Source: Curvularia clavata
Taxonomy: Eukaryota
Direction of reading: 5' to 3'
DNA: 64,000 nucleotides
Assembly: GCA_023920165.1 (NCBI GenBank)
Contig: CP089275.1
Coordinates: forward strand, 2,108,001-2,172,000
Shown here: positions 21,885 through 61,959 of the stretch, in pieces
Numbering within the stretch: the first letter of the stretch is position 1
Layout of the letters: each line of letters begins with the position of its first letter
Made by a program: the position numbers and the translations under genes
Notes under the pieces: generated by a model
Seen by the model: the letters and a program-made list of their open reading frames with translations, nothing else
Database searches by the model: none
What the model was told of the DNA's origin: nothing

Positions 21885-24653
21885 ATGATGGCGTCCAACT
21901 TGCTATCCAGACTCCTTCCTTCTGCCTCCGACGAACCCTTCGAACACGAACCACTCAACGCCCCACACCGTCGCGACTCTGTCTCAACCCAGGAGCAACA
22001 CGAAATGGATATAGATGAAGAGAACTTTGGCGCTCGCTTTGAGGAGCAGGACCTCGCACACTTGCTGGAGGAAGCGTCATCCAGTCAGATGACAACCGAG
22101 AGTCGCGCTGTATCTCCAGATGCCAAACGCATCGCACCTCCAGGTATCAATACAACGAGTCGCATGCCAGCATGGAGACAGCCTGCACCAGCCCGTCCAG
22201 TGTCCTTAGACGATGACGATGACGTCCCTCAATCCCTACTCCTCGAAGGAGGACATGGGCCAGGACCGAGTTCGAGCAAGCATAATGGAGGACTCCCCAT
22301 GCCTGTACCAGGCCCATCGACACGACAGACACGAGCTCAGTGGGACGCCACTCGTACACAGCAACGGCTCCATGACGATGATAGGAGAGGTGCGCCTTCA
22401 CAGCCTTGGGGACACACCAGCAGACCGGGACATTTTGCTGCAGATCCGAGAGAGAAAGCTCTGTGGCTGTGGGTCAACCAGACAGATCTGGACAACTACA
22501 TGACTGAAGTTTACGAATACTATGTTGGCTGTGGCATATATTCGATTCTTCTCAGAAGGGTCCTGACGCTTTTGCAAACTGCCTTTGTAGTGGGCTTTAT
22601 GACATTTCTGGGATGGTGCATAGACTACTCCAAGTTGCACGAAAGCAACAAGATGAGCCAAGTTTTAGTACCCAAGTGTGCCGCAAGGTTTGTACCGTCT
22701 ATTTTTCATACCATCAACATATAGCTAACTTCAAGCAGGATACACGGCTTCTGGATACTGGCGCTTTGGGTCTTCGTCATATACTGGCTCTACTCTTTCT
22801 ATAACACAGTCACAGACATACCTCGGCTCCGAGCCATGCACGACTTCTATCACTATCTGCTTGATATTCCCGACTGCGACATTCAGACGATACAATGGCA
22901 ACAAGTCGTAGTACGCATCATGGCGTTGCGAGATTTGAACCTGGCTACTGCTTCCAACTTGTCACCAGAAACACGGAAATTGCTCGACTCCAAAAGCAGA
23001 CAACGGTTGGATGCTATCGATATCGCAGGTCGCCTAATGCGTCGTGACAACTACCTCATCGCTTTATTCAACAAGGAGATACTGGATGTCACAGTCCCGC
23101 TGCCCTTTCTAGGTAACCGCTACATCTTTTCGGAGACTACCAAATGGCACGTCAATCTTGCCATCATGGACTTCGTATTCAGCGGACCAAATGGCCAATT
23201 CAACCCGGATTTCCTCAAGGAACGTAATCGTAGAGAGCTTGTAAAGCGACTAAAGACGCGATTCTTCTGGACTGGCATCATCAGCATAATTTGCGCGCCT
23301 TTTGCCGTGGTTTTCGTGCTGGCCTCGTATCTGTTCAAATACTTCACGGAATACCACAAGGACCCCGGCCAGCTCAGCAATCGTGATTTCACGACTTTTG
23401 CTCAGTGGAAATTCCGTGAGTTCAACGAGCTTCCTCACTATTTTGCCCGTCGCCGCAACATGGCCTATCCATATGCGAATCTTTACCTGGCTCAGTTCCC
23501 AAAAGACAAGACCGAGCAAATATCTTCCTTTGTCGCATTCATTGCGGGTGCATTTGCTTTCGTTCTGGTATTGTTCACACTTCTTGAATCCGAGTTGTTC
23601 CTCAATTTTGAAATCACGCCCGGCAACACAGCTATTTTCTGGATCGGTGTCTTTACTACAGTATACCGCGTCGCACGGGGAAGCAGTCCGCAGGAAGACC
23701 AGGTCACAGACCCATCCTACTATCTCAGCCACGTCATCTACCACACCCGGTATGAGCCGGAATCATGGCGCGATCGACTACACACCGACGAGGTCCGCGC
23801 TGAATTCACCAAACTCTACCAGCCTAAAATCCTTATCTTCGCCGAGGAAATTTTGAGCATGGTCATCACACCTTTCCTGCTCATCTTCAGACTACCCAAA
23901 TGCAGTGAGCGCATTGTAGATTTCTTCCGGGAGTTTTCGATTGTCGTTGACGGTTTGGGCGTGACATGTTCTTATTCCATGTTCCCATCAACAAAGACCA
24001 CCCGCAATGCCAACAACATCCCAGCAAACGGTACCGGCGCTCGCAGAGAAGACCCAGATCTCCGCGAAGACTATTTCATGGCCAAAGATAACAAGATGAT
24101 GGCCTCATACTACGGCTTCTTGGACACATACCAGAATTCAGGCCGTGGCTACAACAGCCGTCTACAAGGACGAAGTAACTTCCATCCTCCACCACAGTTC
24201 CCTAACACCTTCGGAACCATGTCACAGACCGCACAGCCAATTGAGATGGGCGCAAGAGCATCAAGTAGAGGCCAACCTGGTCGACAGAATCTCCAGCAGA
24301 GGACACCGAGACACAGGCCTACGGCAAGAGACGAGCCTATGAGCTCCATACTCCTTGATCCGCACCACCAGCCTTCTTCGGCATCGATGCTACGTGGCTC
24401 ACCTCGTCAAGCAGCAGCAAATCGATACCGTACGCCTCTTCAAGCCATGTCGGACGCACCCGGTCCATCTCATACCCGCATTGAGGAGGAGAGTATGCTC
24501 GGTGATTCGTGGCGAACAAGTCGTCTAGCTCAAGGCGACGACGATGAAGACGAAGCAACAGCACCTGGTAGCAACCGTGGTGGAGTTTTGCAGCTCTTAC
24601 AGCAGTTTTCCAAAGCGCAGGCTGAAGGCCGGGGCGCCGGCGTTGGTGTTTGA
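21885..24653 (+). CDS. ATG9: Autophagy-related protein 9 (lipid scramblase)
   Basis: Exons 21885-22687 and 22739-24653, intron 22688-22738. Motifs LDAIDIAGRLMRRDNYLIALFNKE, AQWKFREFNELPH and CSERIVDFFREFSIVVDGLG. Confidence 0.96.
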
Positions 24654-25239
24654 TCTTTTTCTATATTTTTGTTGAATTAGCAAAGAATGCATGAGATGAG
24701 ATGATCCTAGTCTACATGAGATGAGCGCAACTAATATACGTGTACAGACCAAGAAACAATCAACAATCTATTTGTACATGAATGGTATGCGACGTGTTGG
24801 GCGTTTGCTAACTCATTCTTGTCCCATTCTCGTATACATCACAACAACTAGCATAGCGGAATTATTTAAACAAACAAGCAGCAAGTTAGTGCCGATCTGA
24901 TGCTTTCATTGGTGACATGAAGGACTTGGACCTATCTAACACGCAGCGACCCTGATGAACTTGTCGTTCTATGCGGATACACTGAATGCTCGGGGTATAA
25001 CCTGACTACTCTTCATTGCATCATCACGCACCACCACTGCTGCCATGGCCGAAACGGGTGTTGTTGTATCATTTGTCATTGTCGGGCTGTTTCTGGTCGT
25101 TCTCTACAGTTACATGCCGCAGAGGTTCTCCCTCCAGCCTTCATCCATAACTGATGAAGAAAACAAATCACGCCGTAACCGAATTCCCATTGGACCCATG
25201 ATCGTCATGCACAGCAACCCATCTCTCTCAACTCAAAAT

Positions 25240-26012
25240 CTAAGCAGAAGCCTCGAAAGCGGTAGGGAAGCGGCGGATGTTCTCAGCAAGGTTACCCTTG
25301 TTGCGGAGGAACTGAACGTAGGCACCGTCGATCTTGACCTTACCCTCCTGGCGCTGCTGGACGTACTCCTCGCGCTTGAGAGGGGTGAAACCCCAGTTCT
25401 TGGAGACGATGATCTTCTGGCGACCAGGGAACTGAGAATAGTTAGTTTCGAAGTACTAGTAAAATTACAGAAAATGAGCGTACCTTGTACTGGCAACGCC
25501 TCAGAGCCTCGAGAGCAATGGCGCGGTTAGAGTCCCTAGTCCTGACGGACATGAGGATCTGACCAATGTTGACACGAGCGACAAGACCGTTGGGCTTGCC
25601 GAACGCACCACGCATACCGGTTTGCAATCTATCGGCACCAGCGCACGACAACATCTTGTTGATACGGACGACGTGGTAGGGGTGGACACGGACACGGAGA
25701 TGGAAAGATTCCTTTCCTCCGCTCTTGACCATGTACTTGTTGGCGCAAATACGGGCGGCTTCGAGGGCCTCAGAGGACAGCTGCTCGTACTCGTTGGAGA
25801 CCAAGTGGATGCAGAGCGGGAAGTCGTCTACGTTGGCCTTCTTGCGACCGAGGTCGAAGATGCGGATCTTGGCATCGGGTACACCACGGTTGAACCTGCT
25901 CTTGGGGTACTGTAACCCAGTCAGCCTATTGTCCTCCTCTCGCTGTATATCCAGTCTGACGTACGGGCTTGTTCTTGCAGTAGCGGTAGCAACGGGCGGG
26001 ACGGCGGGCCAT
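25240..26012 (-). CDS. RPL10: 60S ribosomal protein L10 (uL16)
   Basis: Exons 26012-25965, 25909-25484 and 25431-25240. Reads [28 protein letters not shown]...[25 protein letters not shown]...[16 protein letters not shown]. Confidence 0.98.
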
Positions 26013-26026
26013 TGTGACGGTTCTTC

Positions 26027-26147
26027 CTGCTTTGAAATCAATGAGCGGATGTCCGGAGAGAGTCGAAAACGAGAGCGAGTGCGCAAACTGATGAAGAGGT
26101 CAGTCACACGTCTGCCAGGGGATCTGAATGCGACAACCGTACCTTAC
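26027..26147 (-). other. Putative 5'-UTR intron of RPL10, possibly a nested [D5,6] stwintron
   Basis: Minus strand: GTAAG|GTACGG...GACTGAC...CAG|TTTGCG...GCTCAT...AAGCAG|GAAGAACCGTCACAATG. Confidence 0.5.
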
Positions 26148-26722
26148 CCTTTATTTGAGTGTTAGTGGGGAGGTGTCAGAGGGCAAAGTCGAAGGAAGTC
26201 GTCAGTCGTGATTGCTAATCACAATATTGCGCACCACACGCCAAGACCCGGTTAAGCGAGCGCCTTGATTTCCAAGCAGGCACCGCCACCCAAGCGCAAT
26301 CCTGGGGATCTGTGGCAAACGCAACGCGAACATTACGCTATTTGTGGTTCTCTGAAGCAATGGTCTGCATATTGCATATCTCTATGATATCAAAAGGGTA
26401 ATCTTCATCCCTCAAATTTTGGCTGAAGCGACACCCTGCTTGGAATTCTTATCCCTAAGCGCGTATAACGTTCATGAAACATATGCTCATCAACGTCAAA
26501 TGCCGAGTCATCAAATCCGTAGCTGCCTTGTTAGACACACGCTATCCTGAAGATGCAGTTCGTGCACAGCCAAGCTGGTCATAATGAGTCACATCACATA
26601 AAGCATGGTCGGACGTCAAATGGCTCATGAATTTGGGTCATTCATTGGATATCATCAGGGGCCGAAGCATACGCCACACCCTAGGTATCATGTCTAACTT
26701 TTTTCCCACGTGCTACACCGCT

Positions 26723-27370
26723 CTAGTTCTCAGTGTTGGTGCTCAGGATGTCAGAGTCACCTGCAGAAAGTTAGTGGACCGCGTATGTGTTGAGAAGCCA
26801 AGTAAAAACGTACCAGCGTCGATGATGGACATGACAGAGCAGCGGAAGAGCTTACCGCAAGCGGTTCCAAGCTCAATCTTCAACAAAGTTAGTTGATAGC
26901 TCTCCATGGCCGTGTTCGGACCAATTCTCAGAGCCAGCCCTCGGAGATACCCAGTGCAATCGAACCCCGTTCTTGTCTGATTCTACCCTGAACATATAGG
27001 TCGAGAACTTGTGAACTGATAGATAGGCAATTCAATCGCACGGGTATCTCGTCGTTAGGCAATGAGAGTGGGTGGAGTGTATACGTACGTTGTTTCCAGA
27101 GAAGTGGTGGACAGAGGTCTTGGAAAGCATGGCGTAGTCTGGTGTCATGTTAGCAATGCTTTTGAAATAGTGAATATGAATTTATTTACACTCAAGCTCA
27201 GACTTCCTCAGAGGAGGAGTGTTGCCGGCAATGATGACGAGCTTGGCCTTGCCAGTGCGGAGGCTCTTGAGGGTGGACTTGTATCCGAGGGTGACCTTAC
27301 CGGACTTCATCACAAGCGCCAGGCGCGAGTTGATGGAGTCGGCGGTTCTCTTGCTCTTCTTGGGGGCCAT
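26723..27370 (-). CDS. RPL30: 60S ribosomal protein L30 (eL30, L7Ae family)
   Basis: Exons 27370-27190, 27138-27089, 26877-26814 and 26760-26723. Introns of 51, 211 and 53 nt. Reads MAPKKSK...[13 protein letters not shown]...RKSELEYYAMLSKT...[33 protein letters not shown]. Confidence 0.98.
26937..27060 (-). other. Intronic RNA stem-loop closed by a kink-turn motif (RPL30 intron 2)
   Basis: 5' arm GCCU-AAC-GAC-GAGAUACCC-GUGCGAUUGAA pairs with 3' arm UUCGAUUGCAC-U-GGGUAUCUC-CGA-GGGC. Confidence 0.65.
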
Positions 27371-61152: not shown

Positions 61153-61959
61153 GCAGCCCTATGTGGGGCAAATTATTCCTGCTTTGGGTTTTGGCACCTA
61201 CACCAAGTGCTAGGAAGCTCTTTCAATACTGCAGTTAATGTGTGCGAGCTCGACTGTTTTTCCTCCCAGCGTACTCTGTGAAAAGACTGTAGTTGCCAGA
61301 TTCAAGATCATACAGCAGCCTACCTTACTGTGTCAACGATATGAACACCCACAGAGATGGATATCATTTTTGGAAGCTATGCGCCAGTTGAGTGCGATGT
61401 TGAGAAGACCCATTAAAGAGAAGCAGACTGTGAACCAAATACCACACGAATCGGTCACATTTTGACAACACTATGTCAACACCACTTGGCATCATAATGG
61501 TTTTTTATTCATCTACAATTGAGATCAGCGAGTGGAGCTGCTTAGTTGAAGTCTTTGAGTAGCCTTGTTCAATCTACAGCATATATTCATGGGGTATAGA
61601 CTTAAATCCTTCAAATCGGAAGAGACCAATTTTGCAAACTGGTCGCAGCCGAATGAGCGTTCTGAACCCTTCATGCTAGCGCTAAAGAAAGACAGTATCT
61701 CGGTGCTGCACTATCAGGACGCAGCTGTGAGGCTCGGAAGTCTGTCGAGCGCATTGAATCCAATTTCCAATAATGATTTTTGATATTTTTAAGCTCAGTC
61801 TGATACCGAGCTTTCCTTGCTTACGATTTCACTGTGGTTCGACTCGGTAAAAAGACGAAGTTCCGTTGAGTACCATGGTAAGAACAGGTGCAGCCAGAAA
61901 CGAAATCCAGCTCAGTAGCCAAATCTACGAATATCTCGAACAAAACGCCTTGGCATTTT

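What the first reader, a model, noticed from the sequence alone, without database searches (positions are those of the whole stretch)
26027..26147. Candidate [D5,6] stwintron (intron nested in a splice donor) in the RPL10 5' leader
Seen on the minus strand: GTAAG is immediately followed by a complete 55-nt intron (GTACGG at 26142, branch ACTGAC, CAG ending at 26088), whose next base is T. Removing it creates a perfect GTAAGT donor for a 66-nt second intron (GCTCAT branch-like, AAGCAG ending at 26027), 14 nt before the ATG. Established: spliceosomal twin introns with a split donor occur in ascomycetes. Caveat: the same bases resemble the S. pombe ribosomal-protein promoter elements Homol-E (AGGGTAAGGT, one mismatch) and Homol-D (TGTGACTG, 26108-26101), so the stretch may instead be promoter.
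Basis: partly seen in the sequence, partly recalled or inferred. Interest (0 to 1): 0.7.

Follow-up and report, generated by a model that had tools for sequence, protein, structure and literature searches.

The report
Nested twin intron in RPL10 leader
The untranslated leader of this fungus's ribosomal protein L10 gene holds one small intron sitting inside the start signal of a second one; transcripts show both cuts and eight related fungi keep the design, so it is a new example of a rare, already described kind of intron.

Summary
The bases are as described, on the minus strand: AGG|GTAAG(26147-26143)|GTACGG...ACTGAC...CAG(26088)|T(26087).

Contigs from four runs of four studies are RNA, because all skip both RPL10 coding introns.
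- The predicted 55-nt inner junction (26143>26087) is present in 2 of 4 runs.
- A full junction is present in 1 of 4 runs.
- The two mixed junctions were not listed.
- Spliced contigs reach 26176-26180, so the stretch is transcribed.
- In the other two runs the leader is unspliced.

Of 74 metagenome relatives with a recognisable start codon, 8 loci (7 distinct) keep the design, while the intron bodies diverge. They form one clade with 99/99 support. Its neighbours have a simple donor at the same spot. The Homol-D-like octamer is kept in 0 of 7 relatives.

Best reading: a facultative [D5,6] stwintron in a 5' UTR, a new member of a known kind. The known example is rtnA (PMC6616335). The order of the two cuts is inferred, not shown.

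The scan has noted other stwintron types in other genomes. None of the 8 notes shown (of 17) was in RPL10.

The parts
26148..26180 (-). Leader exon 1 (5' UTR, about 29-33 nt), ending ...CACTAACACTCAAATAAAGG. The probable transcription start is at about 26176-26180.
   Evidence: The X2 contig runs 26143-26180 and then into adapter. The X1 118-skip contig has 29 nt on this side. Depth falls from 193 to 4.3 (X1) and from 416 to 1.8 (X2) upstream of 26180; from contigs this is only a weak hint. CCACTAACAC..TAAATA[CA]AGG is kept in 6 of 6 genomic sequences.
26143..26147 (-). GTAAG, the first five bases of the external intron's donor.
   Evidence: It is used as the 5' splice site in the X1 joint 26029>26148. 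It is invariant in the 7 sequences of the nested clade that cover it, the window included.
26088..26142 (-). Internal intron, 55 nt: donor GTACGG (26142-26137), branch ACTGAC (26104-26099, A at 26100), acceptor CAG (26090-26088).
   Evidence: The joint 26087>26143 skips exactly these 55 nt in X1 (depth 12.4) and X2 (depth 514), two different studies. Relatives have inner units of 55-59 nt with CTRAC and the first AG 10-13 nt further on.
26030..26087 (-). Rest of the external intron, 58 nt. T26087 becomes donor position 6 (GTAAG|T). Branch candidates are GCTCAT (26046-26041) or ATTGAT (26042-26037). The acceptor is the AAG ending at 26030.
   Evidence: The X1 joint 26029>26148 skips 118 nt with GT..AG ends on the minus strand, depth 253. 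T follows the inner acceptor in 8 of 8 nested-clade leaders, and CTCAY followed by YAG is kept.
26013..26029 (-). 5' UTR part of exon 2, CAGGAAGAACCGTCACA, directly before the ATG.
   Evidence: CGTCACA-ATG is kept in relatives.
25240..26012 (-). RPL10/uL16 coding region, 221 codons plus stop. Exons are 26012-25965, 25909-25484 and 25431-25240. Introns are 25964-25910 (GTACGT) and 25483-25432 (GTACGC).
   Evidence: Both introns are skipped in contigs of 4 of 4 runs. cDNA-like relatives carry 221-aa ORFs.
26101..26108 (-). TGTGACTG, a Homol-D-like octamer that overlaps the inner branch site. It is judged a chance resemblance.
   Evidence: The exact octamer is present in the window and in 0 of 7 relatives. 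Only the ACTRAY branch core is kept.
26262..26275 (-). Upstream motif GCTTGGAAATCAAGG, about 125 nt before the outer donor; a likely promoter element.
   Evidence: GCTT[GT]GAAATC aligns in the window, L001, L002 and L003. Similar TTTGAAATCAA motifs lie in promoters of distant relatives.

Best explanation
The RPL10 (uL16) gene is transcribed from about 26176-26180 on the minus strand. Its 5' UTR carries a 118-nt complex intervening sequence (26147-26030) built as a [D5,6] spliceosomal twin intron. Step 1 (shown as a product): the spliceosome pairs the nearest sites and removes the 55-nt internal intron (GTACGG...ACTGAC...CAG, 26142-26088). Step 2 (product shown, order inferred): the ligation puts T26087 behind GTAAG and turns the off-consensus GTAAGG into a consensus GTAAGT donor. 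That donor is then used with the CTCAT/ATTGAT branch and the first AG downstream (26030) to remove the remaining 63 nt, leaving a 5' UTR of about 50 nt. The arrangement probably arose in the ancestor of one clade by a short duplication of the donor of an older simple leader intron (inferred). Splicing is not obligatory. Unspliced and half-spliced leaders accumulate as mRNA with the coding introns removed. All forms stay translatable because the whole leader lacks ATG.
For: 1. RNA. Contigs of 4 of 4 runs skip both coding introns, so they are RNA. The joint 26087>26143 (55 nt) appears in X1 (depth 12.4) and X2 (depth 514). The joint 26029>26148 (118 nt, GT..AG) appears in X1 (depth 253).
2. Of the four possible donor-acceptor pairings, only inner-inner and outer-outer are listed. 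Outer donor to inner acceptor (a 60-nt intron with the good ACTGAC branch) is absent, although contigs of depth 4-13 were kept in X1. This is what is expected if the outer donor works only after step 1. It also fits the intron-definition rule stated for stwintrons (PMC7138796).
3. G at donor position 6 is outside the fungal consensus GURWGY. T restores it.
4. Conservation. GTAAG|GTACG[GT], a CTRAY branch, the first AG 10-13 nt further on and a following T are kept in all 8 distinct nested-clade leaders (L008 lacks the first 5 nt). Inner units are 55-59 nt. Intron bodies are barely alignable between subgroups, and exon-2 DNA identity to the window is 89-95%.
5. The nested rows form one clade with 99/99 support. 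Neighbouring rows L011, L012, L015 and L017 have a simple donor at the same AGG|GTA (GTAAGA, GTAAGC, GTAGGT, GTACGC). L002 and L003 show a further GTAC repeat. Both fit the published model of donor duplication (PMC7138796).
6. The same two products, mature RNA and an intermediate lacking only the internal intron, are the published standard for the rtnA [D5,6] stwintron (PMC6616335).
7. There are 0 ATG in the 114-125 nt intronic leader of 8 of 8 nested-clade sequences (1.2-1.45 expected each). The 55-61 nt coding intron 1 has an ATG in 5 of 6 genomic sequences.
Against: The order of the two cuts is not observed. The same 118-nt product could come from one reaction at GTAAGG. Position 6 seems tolerant at this very intron, since the neighbouring lineages carry A, C, T and C there.

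The full junction is listed in only 1 of 4 runs. In X2 the half-spliced form (depth 514) was assembled but the full junction was not. That looks more like a stable isoform than a transient intermediate.

X3 and X4 and the cDNA-like contigs L007 and L008 carry the leader unspliced, as do L015 and L017 of the simple-donor group.

Contigs drop rare variants and give no local depth, so the absence of mixed junctions and all isoform ratios are soft evidence. The T after the inner acceptor also occurs in 3 simple-donor relatives, so it predates the nesting and is not evidence of selection for donor repair. The outer branch CTCAY departs from the DYURAY consensus at the R position.
Confidence: 0.6

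Rival explanations
1. There are two overlapping alternative introns rather than a twin intron. The primary transcript is spliced once, either from GTACGG (26142) to CAG (26088), removing 55 nt, or from GTAAGG (26147) to AAG (26030), removing 118 nt. The 55-nt product is a finished mRNA isoform that is not processed further.
For: In X2 the 55-skip form is assembled at depth 514 with no full junction. In X1 the ratio is about 1:20 the other way. This is more easily read as a regulated choice than as precursor and product. Simple donors with A or C at +6 sit at the same spot in related lineages. RNA-verified donors of this gene are off-consensus too (GTACGC). Lipomyces starkeyi offers a published precedent of an intervening sequence with abutting donors that is removed either in one reaction or in two (PMC7138796).
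Against: If GTAAGG were active on the primary transcript, intron definition predicts pairing with the near, strong ACTGAC/CAG site, giving a 60-nt intron. That junction is not listed in any of the 4 runs, while junctions of depth 12 are. Strict retention of both donors and of the inner 3' elements in 8 of 8 clade members fits sequential use at least as well.
Confidence: 0.25
2. Promoter reading: AGGGTAAGGT (Homol-E-like), the TATA-like ATAAATA and TGTGACTG (Homol-D-like) drive a start site downstream of them, and most RPL10 mRNA starts inside or after the 'intron'. The splicing seen would then concern only a minority of upstream-initiated transcripts, and the DNA would have a dual use.
For: The window matches the S. 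pombe arrangement AGGGTAGGGT-TGTGACTG in 9 of 10 plus 8 of 8 bases. The spacing is 32 bp, the upper limit of the 0-32 bp reported (PMC10253590). In X2, coding depth (about 9,600) is far above leader depth (514), and one contig ends at 26030 plus one C and then adapter. AGGGTA and ATAAATA are kept in relatives.
Against: RNA contigs of two studies contain 26143-26180 joined to the coding region, and X3 reads through to 26161, so the elements are transcribed. TGTGACTG is kept in 0 of 7 relatives. AGG|GTA is equally explained as exon end plus donor, and cDNA-like contigs L015 and L017 of related lineages start upstream of it. The Homol-D rule would put the start 39-52 bp downstream (about 26062-26049), not at 26030. 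Depth from contigs falls near transcript ends anyway. An adapter end also occurs inside the coding region at 25861.
Confidence: 0.1
3. Artefact: the junctions are assembly chimeras, or they come from DNA alleles or retrocopies that lack these bases.
For: All evidence is from de Bruijn contigs, not reads. The 118-nt joint is marked 'between: not known' and has only 29 nt on its short side.
Against: Both joints have exact GT..AG ends at predicted sites. The 55-nt joint recurs in two studies. Unspliced and spliced forms coexist in X1, in runs whose contigs also skip the coding introns.
Confidence: 0.03

Closest known systems
[D5,6] stwintron of the reticulon-like gene rtnA (AN5404) of Aspergillus nidulans and nearly all Pezizomycotina (Kavalecz et al. 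2019, PMC6616335; whole-text parts 1-2 and passages read)
   Same: The internal U2 intron lies between nt 5 and 6 of the external donor (GUAAG|U). Both units are short. A mature RNA and an intermediate lacking only the internal intron are detected. The design is kept across related species, and simple introns occur where the internal one is absent.
   Different: The host gene is different (uL16/RPL10). The site is in the 5' UTR, so no reading frame enforces complete removal. The inner donor GTACGG fails the authors' screening motif. It is restricted to one clade rather than a subphylum, as far as 80 metagenome loci show. Unspliced and half-spliced mRNAs accumulate.
[D6,7] 'stwintron sensu lato' of Lipomyces starkeyi, and the stwintronisation model (Ag et al. 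2020, PMC7138796; part 1 and passages read)
   Same: There are two donors side by side. The sequence is removable in two consecutive reactions, or possibly in one. Origin is proposed by a small duplication of the donor of an older intron. Here the neighbouring lineages keep the simple donor, and L002 and L003 show a further GTAC repeat.
   Different: There, the one-step route uses the downstream donor and gives an mRNA 6 nt longer, so the routes can be told apart by product. Here, one-step and two-step routes from the outer donor give the same product.
Sheared sister stwintron HCOc046A in a 5' UTR of Hypoxylon sp. CO27-5 (PMC8469720; one passage read)
   Same: It is a stwintron-derived sequence in a 5' untranslated region, 29 nt before the start codon.
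   Different: It belongs to the repeated [D1,2] family, is species-specific and sheared. It is not a conserved [D5,6] unit in a ribosomal protein gene.
HomolE-HomolD core promoter of fission yeast ribosomal protein genes (PMC10253590; passages read)
   Same: It is a ribosomal protein gene, and it has AGGGTA[A/G]GGT followed at 32 bp by TGTGACTG in the natural orientation.
   Different: The elements lie inside transcribed, spliced RNA. The octamer is not kept in any of 7 relatives. No start site at the predicted 39-52 bp downstream has been shown.
Recursive splicing of metazoan long introns (recalled, not looked up here)
   Same: A splice ligation regenerates a 5' splice site that is used in a further reaction.
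   Different: Those cases concern very long introns and regenerate the donor at a 3' splice site (AG|GTAAGT). Here, two units of about 60 nt are nested within a donor hexamer.

Membership tests
[D5,6] stwintron (Flipphi/Fekete nomenclature) | A complete internal U2 intron (donor, branch element, acceptor) of normal fungal size | tested here: met
   GTACGG...ACTGAC-8 nt-CAG, 55 nt. It is excised exactly in X1 and X2. The donor departs from GTRWGH at +4 and +6, so the published motif misses it. However, GTACGT and GTACGC are RNA-verified donors in the same gene.
[D5,6] stwintron (Flipphi/Fekete nomenclature) | The internal intron sits between nt 5 and 6 of the external donor (GURWG|Y), so the consensus donor exists only after its removal | tested here: met
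   GTAAG(26147-26143)|inner|T(26087): GTAAGG before removal, GTAAGT after. The same holds in all relatives that cover it.
[D5,6] stwintron (Flipphi/Fekete nomenclature) | RNA from which the whole intervening sequence is gone, using the outer donor and the outer acceptor | tested here: met
   Joint 26029>26148, 118 nt, GT..AG, depth 253. It comes from one contig in 1 of 4 runs (X1).
[D5,6] stwintron (Flipphi/Fekete nomenclature) | A splicing intermediate lacking the internal intron but still holding the external one | tested here: met
   The X2 contig runs 26001-26087 joined to 26143-26180 (depth 514). The same joint is in X1 (depth 12.4).
[D5,6] stwintron (Flipphi/Fekete nomenclature) | Excision of the external intron depends on prior excision of the internal one (inside-out order) | tested here: inconclusive
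   There is only indirect support: no outer-donor-to-inner-acceptor joint and no inner-donor-to-outer-acceptor joint is listed. A firm answer needs lariat reads or mutants.
[D5,6] stwintron (Flipphi/Fekete nomenclature) | Retention of the nested signals in orthologues | tested here: met
   All 8 distinct nested-clade sequences keep them. The clade has 99/99 support.
HomolE-HomolD ribosomal protein promoter (S. pombe type) | Octamer CAGTCACA/TGTGACTG as a conserved core element | tested here: not met
   It is present in the window (26108-26101) but in 0 of 7 relatives.
HomolE-HomolD ribosomal protein promoter (S. pombe type) | HomolE AGGGTAGGGT 0-32 bp upstream of HomolD, in the same orientation | tested here: met
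   AGGGTAAGGT (26150-26141) matches 9 of 10 bases, with a 32-bp gap.
HomolE-HomolD ribosomal protein promoter (S. pombe type) | Transcription starts 39-52 bp downstream of HomolD, so the boxes are not transcribed | tested here: inconclusive
   Contigs of X1, X2 and X3 include the boxes, so at least these RNAs start upstream. An additional downstream start cannot be excluded from contigs.

The most novel reading that the evidence does not exclude
The twin intron is a regulated two-stage switch in the leader of an essential ribosomal protein mRNA. Cells can stop after no cut, one cut or two cuts, giving three ATG-free 5' UTRs of about 168, 113 and 50 nt that differ in translation or stability. 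The second cut would be the controlled step. Full versus half-spliced is about 20:1 in one study, while the full form is not even assembled next to a half-spliced form of depth 514 in another, and the leader is unspliced in two more. Selection keeps the whole 'intron' free of start codons for this reason.
Probability: 0.2. Interest if true: 0.65.

Novelty: new member of a known kind. Interest (0 to 1): 0.5.

Why it matters
Stwintrons other than [D1,2] are few; the abstract of PMC12403724 says almost all described stwintrons are [D1,2]. In the papers I read, the only [D5,6] case is rtnA.

This would be a second, independent [D5,6] case. It lies in a highly expressed ribosomal protein gene and in a 5' UTR. 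Because no reading frame forces complete removal there, it shows which signals selection keeps for their own sake.

The locus also offers a natural series that fits the proposed origin of twin introns by donor duplication:
- a simple donor in neighbouring lineages;
- a nested donor in one clade;
- an extra GTAC repeat in two members of that clade.

In practice, gene models and 5' UTR annotation for this gene would be wrong if only one canonical intron were allowed. The published motif screen would also miss the site because of its GTACGG inner donor.

Tried and rejected
- **Own genome.** None is held, so genome-wide donor statistics and other ribosomal protein leaders could not be examined.
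- **Run search.** No RNA holder is listed on record; all kinds are guessed. The four runs laid proved to be RNA only because their contigs skip the coding introns.
- **Depth from contigs.** I considered using it to estimate isoform shares and start sites, and rejected this. Depth is one mean per contig, and it falls near transcript ends. The low cover upstream of 26180, the 26030+C+adapter end in X2 and the contig ends of X3 and X4 are therefore left as hints only.
- **Full junction in X2-X4.** Its absence is not treated as absence of the isoform.
- **Earlier scan notes.** There was nothing near this place or similar to this sequence. The word search gave other stwintron notes in other genomes that did not bear on this locus.
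- **Published [D5,6] motif.** It gave 0 hits in the window.
- **Homol-D.** Rejected as a conserved element.
- **Loci without a usable leader.** L009, L010, L014, L026, L028 and L040 had no recognisable start-codon pattern. Five of them were inspected and gave no usable leader. These 6 of 80 loci are outside all counts.
- **Second GTAAGGTAGG at 61328-61319.** I looked at it and saw no obvious gene, so I dropped it.
- **Spliced-leader cDNA contigs of relatives.** None were among the 80 loci.
- **Literature.** 'stwintron' gave 12 papers. Combined with 'UTR' it gave 2 papers, one matching only 'Utrecht'. Combined with 'untranslated' it gave 2 papers, one with a 5' UTR sheared [D1,2] relative. Combined with 'ribosomal protein' it gave 2 papers, one checked and found to hold the term only in a reference title, the other not opened. 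No RPL10 or ribosomal-protein stwintron was found in these searches. Supplementary host-gene tables of PMC9024468 and PMC12403724 were not opened and could list such cases.

Full report
**What is there.** On the minus strand the window carries a ribosomal protein uL16/RPL10 gene.
- The ATG is at 26012-26010 and the stop at 25242-25240.
- The coding introns are 25964-25910 and 25483-25432.
- An eL30 gene lies just upstream on the same strand.
- The leader reads ...CACTAACACTCAAATAAAGG | GTAAG (26147-26143) | GTACGG...ACTGAC...CAG (26142-26088) | TTTGCGC...GCTCATTGATTTCAAAG (26087-26030) | CAGGAAGAACCGTCACA | ATG.

By sequence alone the pattern is not remarkable.
- The published [D5,6] screening motif (PMC6616335) has no hit in the window.
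- A version with a relaxed inner donor has exactly one hit, 26030-26147 minus.
- Simulated sequences give a mean of 0.35 hits per 64 kb.

**RNA evidence.** No run is on record as RNA. I laid four holders from four studies.
- All four have contigs that skip exactly the two coding introns, so they are RNA.
- The leader shows two joints.
  - The first, 26087>26143, skips 55 nt. It is exactly the predicted inner intron, seen in X1 (depth 12.4) and X2 (depth 514). The X2 contig reads 26001-26087 joined to 26143-26180 and then runs into adapter.
  - The second, 26029>26148, skips 118 nt and has GT..AG ends on the minus strand. It is seen in X1 only (depth 253; 29 nt on its short side; marked 'between: not known').
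- The outer donor is therefore the predicted GTAAG at 26147. The acceptor is the AAG ending at 26030, the first AG after the branch region, and not the CAG at 26027.
- Outer donor to inner acceptor (60 nt) and inner donor to outer acceptor (113 nt) were not listed in any run, although X1 kept contigs of depth 4-13.
- Unspliced leader also exists. X1 has 26060-26172 at depth 13.5. The single X3 contig (1,113 nt, depth 30.6) and the X4 contig run unbroken from 25965 to 26161 and to 26114, with both coding introns removed.
- Spliced contigs end at 26176-26180, and summed depth drops about 45-fold (X1) and over 200-fold (X2) upstream of 26180. From contigs this is only a weak pointer to a start site near 26176-26180. 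It is enough to show that the stretch is transcribed.

**Relatives.** A metagenome scan with the exon-2 protein kept the best 80 of 502 relatives. A start codon pattern was found in 74 of the 80.
- GTAAGGT before the ATG occurs in L001-L007 and nowhere else among the 74. L008 starts at the inner donor. L003 and L004 have the same leader.
- In the window plus these seven distinct sequences:
  - AGG|GTAAG|GTACG[G/T] is invariant where covered.
  - The inner unit is 55-59 nt in the seven leaders the script measured.
  - A CTRAY branch (CTGAC, CTAAC or CTGAT) is followed 10-13 nt later by the first AG.
  - The next base is T in 8 of 8.
  - A CTCAY element followed by YAG lies about 17 nt before the ATG.
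- The rest of the intron bodies is hardly alignable between the window/L001-L003 group and L005-L008, although exon-2 DNA identity to the window is 89-95%.
- In an exon-2 tree of 32 rows the nine nested rows form one clade with 99/99 support. Their neighbours L011, L012, L015 and L017 have a simple donor at the same AGG|GTA (GTAAGA, GTAAGC, GTAGGT, GTACGC), followed in L012, L015 and L017 by CTGAC or CTAAC and an AG|T.
- L002 and L003 read GTAAG|GTAC|GTACGG, a further 4-nt repeat that makes the inner donor GTACGT.
- This series is what the donor-duplication ('stwintronisation') model predicts (PMC7138796).

**Promoter caveat.** In S. pombe, HomolD (CAGTCACA/TGTGACTG) lies 39-52 bp upstream of the start. 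HomolE (AGGGTAGGGT) lies 0-32 bp upstream of HomolD (PMC10253590).
- The window matches 8 of 8 and 9 of 10 bases, with a 32-bp gap.
- But the octamer is kept in 0 of 7 relatives; only the branch core inside it is kept.
- AGG|GTA is equally explained as exon end plus donor.
- RNA of three studies contains these bases.
- A second, downstream start cannot be excluded. X2 has far more coding depth (about 9,600) than leader depth (514), and one contig ends at 26030 plus one C and adapter.
- That evidence is weak. Depth falls near transcript ends, an adapter end also occurs inside the coding region at 25861, and 26030 is not where the HomolD rule would put a start.

**Mechanism.** The best reading is a [D5,6] stwintron.
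- The nearest sites pair first and the 55-nt inner intron goes.
- The ligation turns GTAAGG, which is outside the GURWGY consensus, into GTAAGT.
- The remaining 63 nt are then removed.
- What is shown: both products, their exact borders, and retention of all signals.
- What is inferred: the order of the two cuts. Its support is the missing 60-nt junction. A GTAAGG donor that was active on the primary transcript should pair with the near, strong ACTGAC/CAG site.
- Against an obligatory order: the outer donor is only one base from consensus, and related lineages tolerate A or C at +6. In X2 the half-spliced form is assembled but the full junction is not, so it behaves like a stable isoform there.
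- I put 0.6 on the two-step route, 0.25 on two alternative one-step introns, about 0.1 on an additional promoter role, and about 0.03 on artefact.

**Facultative splicing.** Unspliced leaders joined to fully spliced coding regions occur in X3 and X4. They also occur in the cDNA-like metagenome contigs L007 and L008, and in L015 and L017 of the simple-donor group. All four contigs carry uninterrupted 221-aa ORFs.
- Assemblers favour the longer path, so this gives no proportions.
- Retention is evidently common.
- In keeping with that, the 114-125 nt intronic leader has no ATG in 8 of 8 nested-clade sequences. The expectation is 1.2-1.45 each, with a probability of none of 0.21-0.30 each, and the lineages are not independent.
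- The half-as-long coding intron 1 has an ATG in 5 of 6 genomic sequences.

**Comparison and novelty.**
- The kind is known. [D5,6] was demonstrated for rtnA by the same two RNA species (PMC6616335).
- One- or two-step removal with adjacent donors is described for Lipomyces starkeyi (PMC7138796).
- A sheared [D1,2]-family element in a 5' UTR is mentioned for Hypoxylon (PMC8469720).
- My searches found no stwintron in RPL10 or in any ribosomal protein gene, and no [D5,6] case in a UTR. Supplementary gene lists were not opened.
- I therefore class it as a new member of a known kind, of moderate interest.

**Unexplained items.**
- The perfect branch-like ACTAAC plus AG, and the ATAAATA, inside exon 1 (kept in 6 of 6 genomic sequences).
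- The TTTGCGC after the inner acceptor.
- The TTGATTTCAAAG at the outer branch and acceptor. It is the inverted form of a promoter motif that also lies about 125 nt upstream of the donor.

Noticed in passing
window 26148-26180 (minus); L001-L006: Leader exon 1 keeps CCACTAACAC..TAAATA[CA]AGG in 6 of 6 genomic sequences. This is a perfect branch-like ACTAAC followed by AG right before the outer donor, together with a TATA-like ATAAATA. No joint into this AG was seen.
   Followed up: partly
window 26029-26040 and 26262-26275 (minus); L036, L039, L050, L052, L074: TTGATTTCAAAG at the outer branch and acceptor is the inverted form of GCTT[GT]GAAATC[AC]A. That motif lies about 125 nt upstream of the outer donor here and in L001-L003, and it also lies in promoters of distant relatives. 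It may be a transcription-factor site doubling as a splice signal.
   Followed up: partly
window 26081-26087 (minus): TTTGCGC directly after the inner acceptor is kept, with small changes, in 6 of 8 nested-clade leaders. This is more than donor position 6 would need.
   Followed up: no
L002 and L003/L004, leader: GTAAG|GTAC|GTACGG: an extra 4-nt GTAC repeat gives three overlapping donor candidates.
   Followed up: partly
window 26030 (minus), run X2: One contig ends at 26030 plus one untemplated C and then adapter. This is either a cap-related 5' end at the outer acceptor or a chance fragment end. In X2 the coding depth (about 9,600) is far above the leader depth (514).
   Followed up: no
window 26745-27370 (minus): The eL30 (RPL30) gene lies directly upstream on the same strand. 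Its first coding intron seems to use the off-consensus donor GTAAAT (read by eye).
   Followed up: no
window 61319-61328 (minus): This is the second GTAAGGTAGG in the window. No obvious gene surrounds it.
   Followed up: partly
window 25100-25660 and beyond: In X1 and X2 the 3' part of RPL10 lies on 3.8-kb contigs that run on past 25100, toward the convergent 605-aa ORF (22836-24653, plus strand). This suggests overlapping 3' ends.
   Followed up: no
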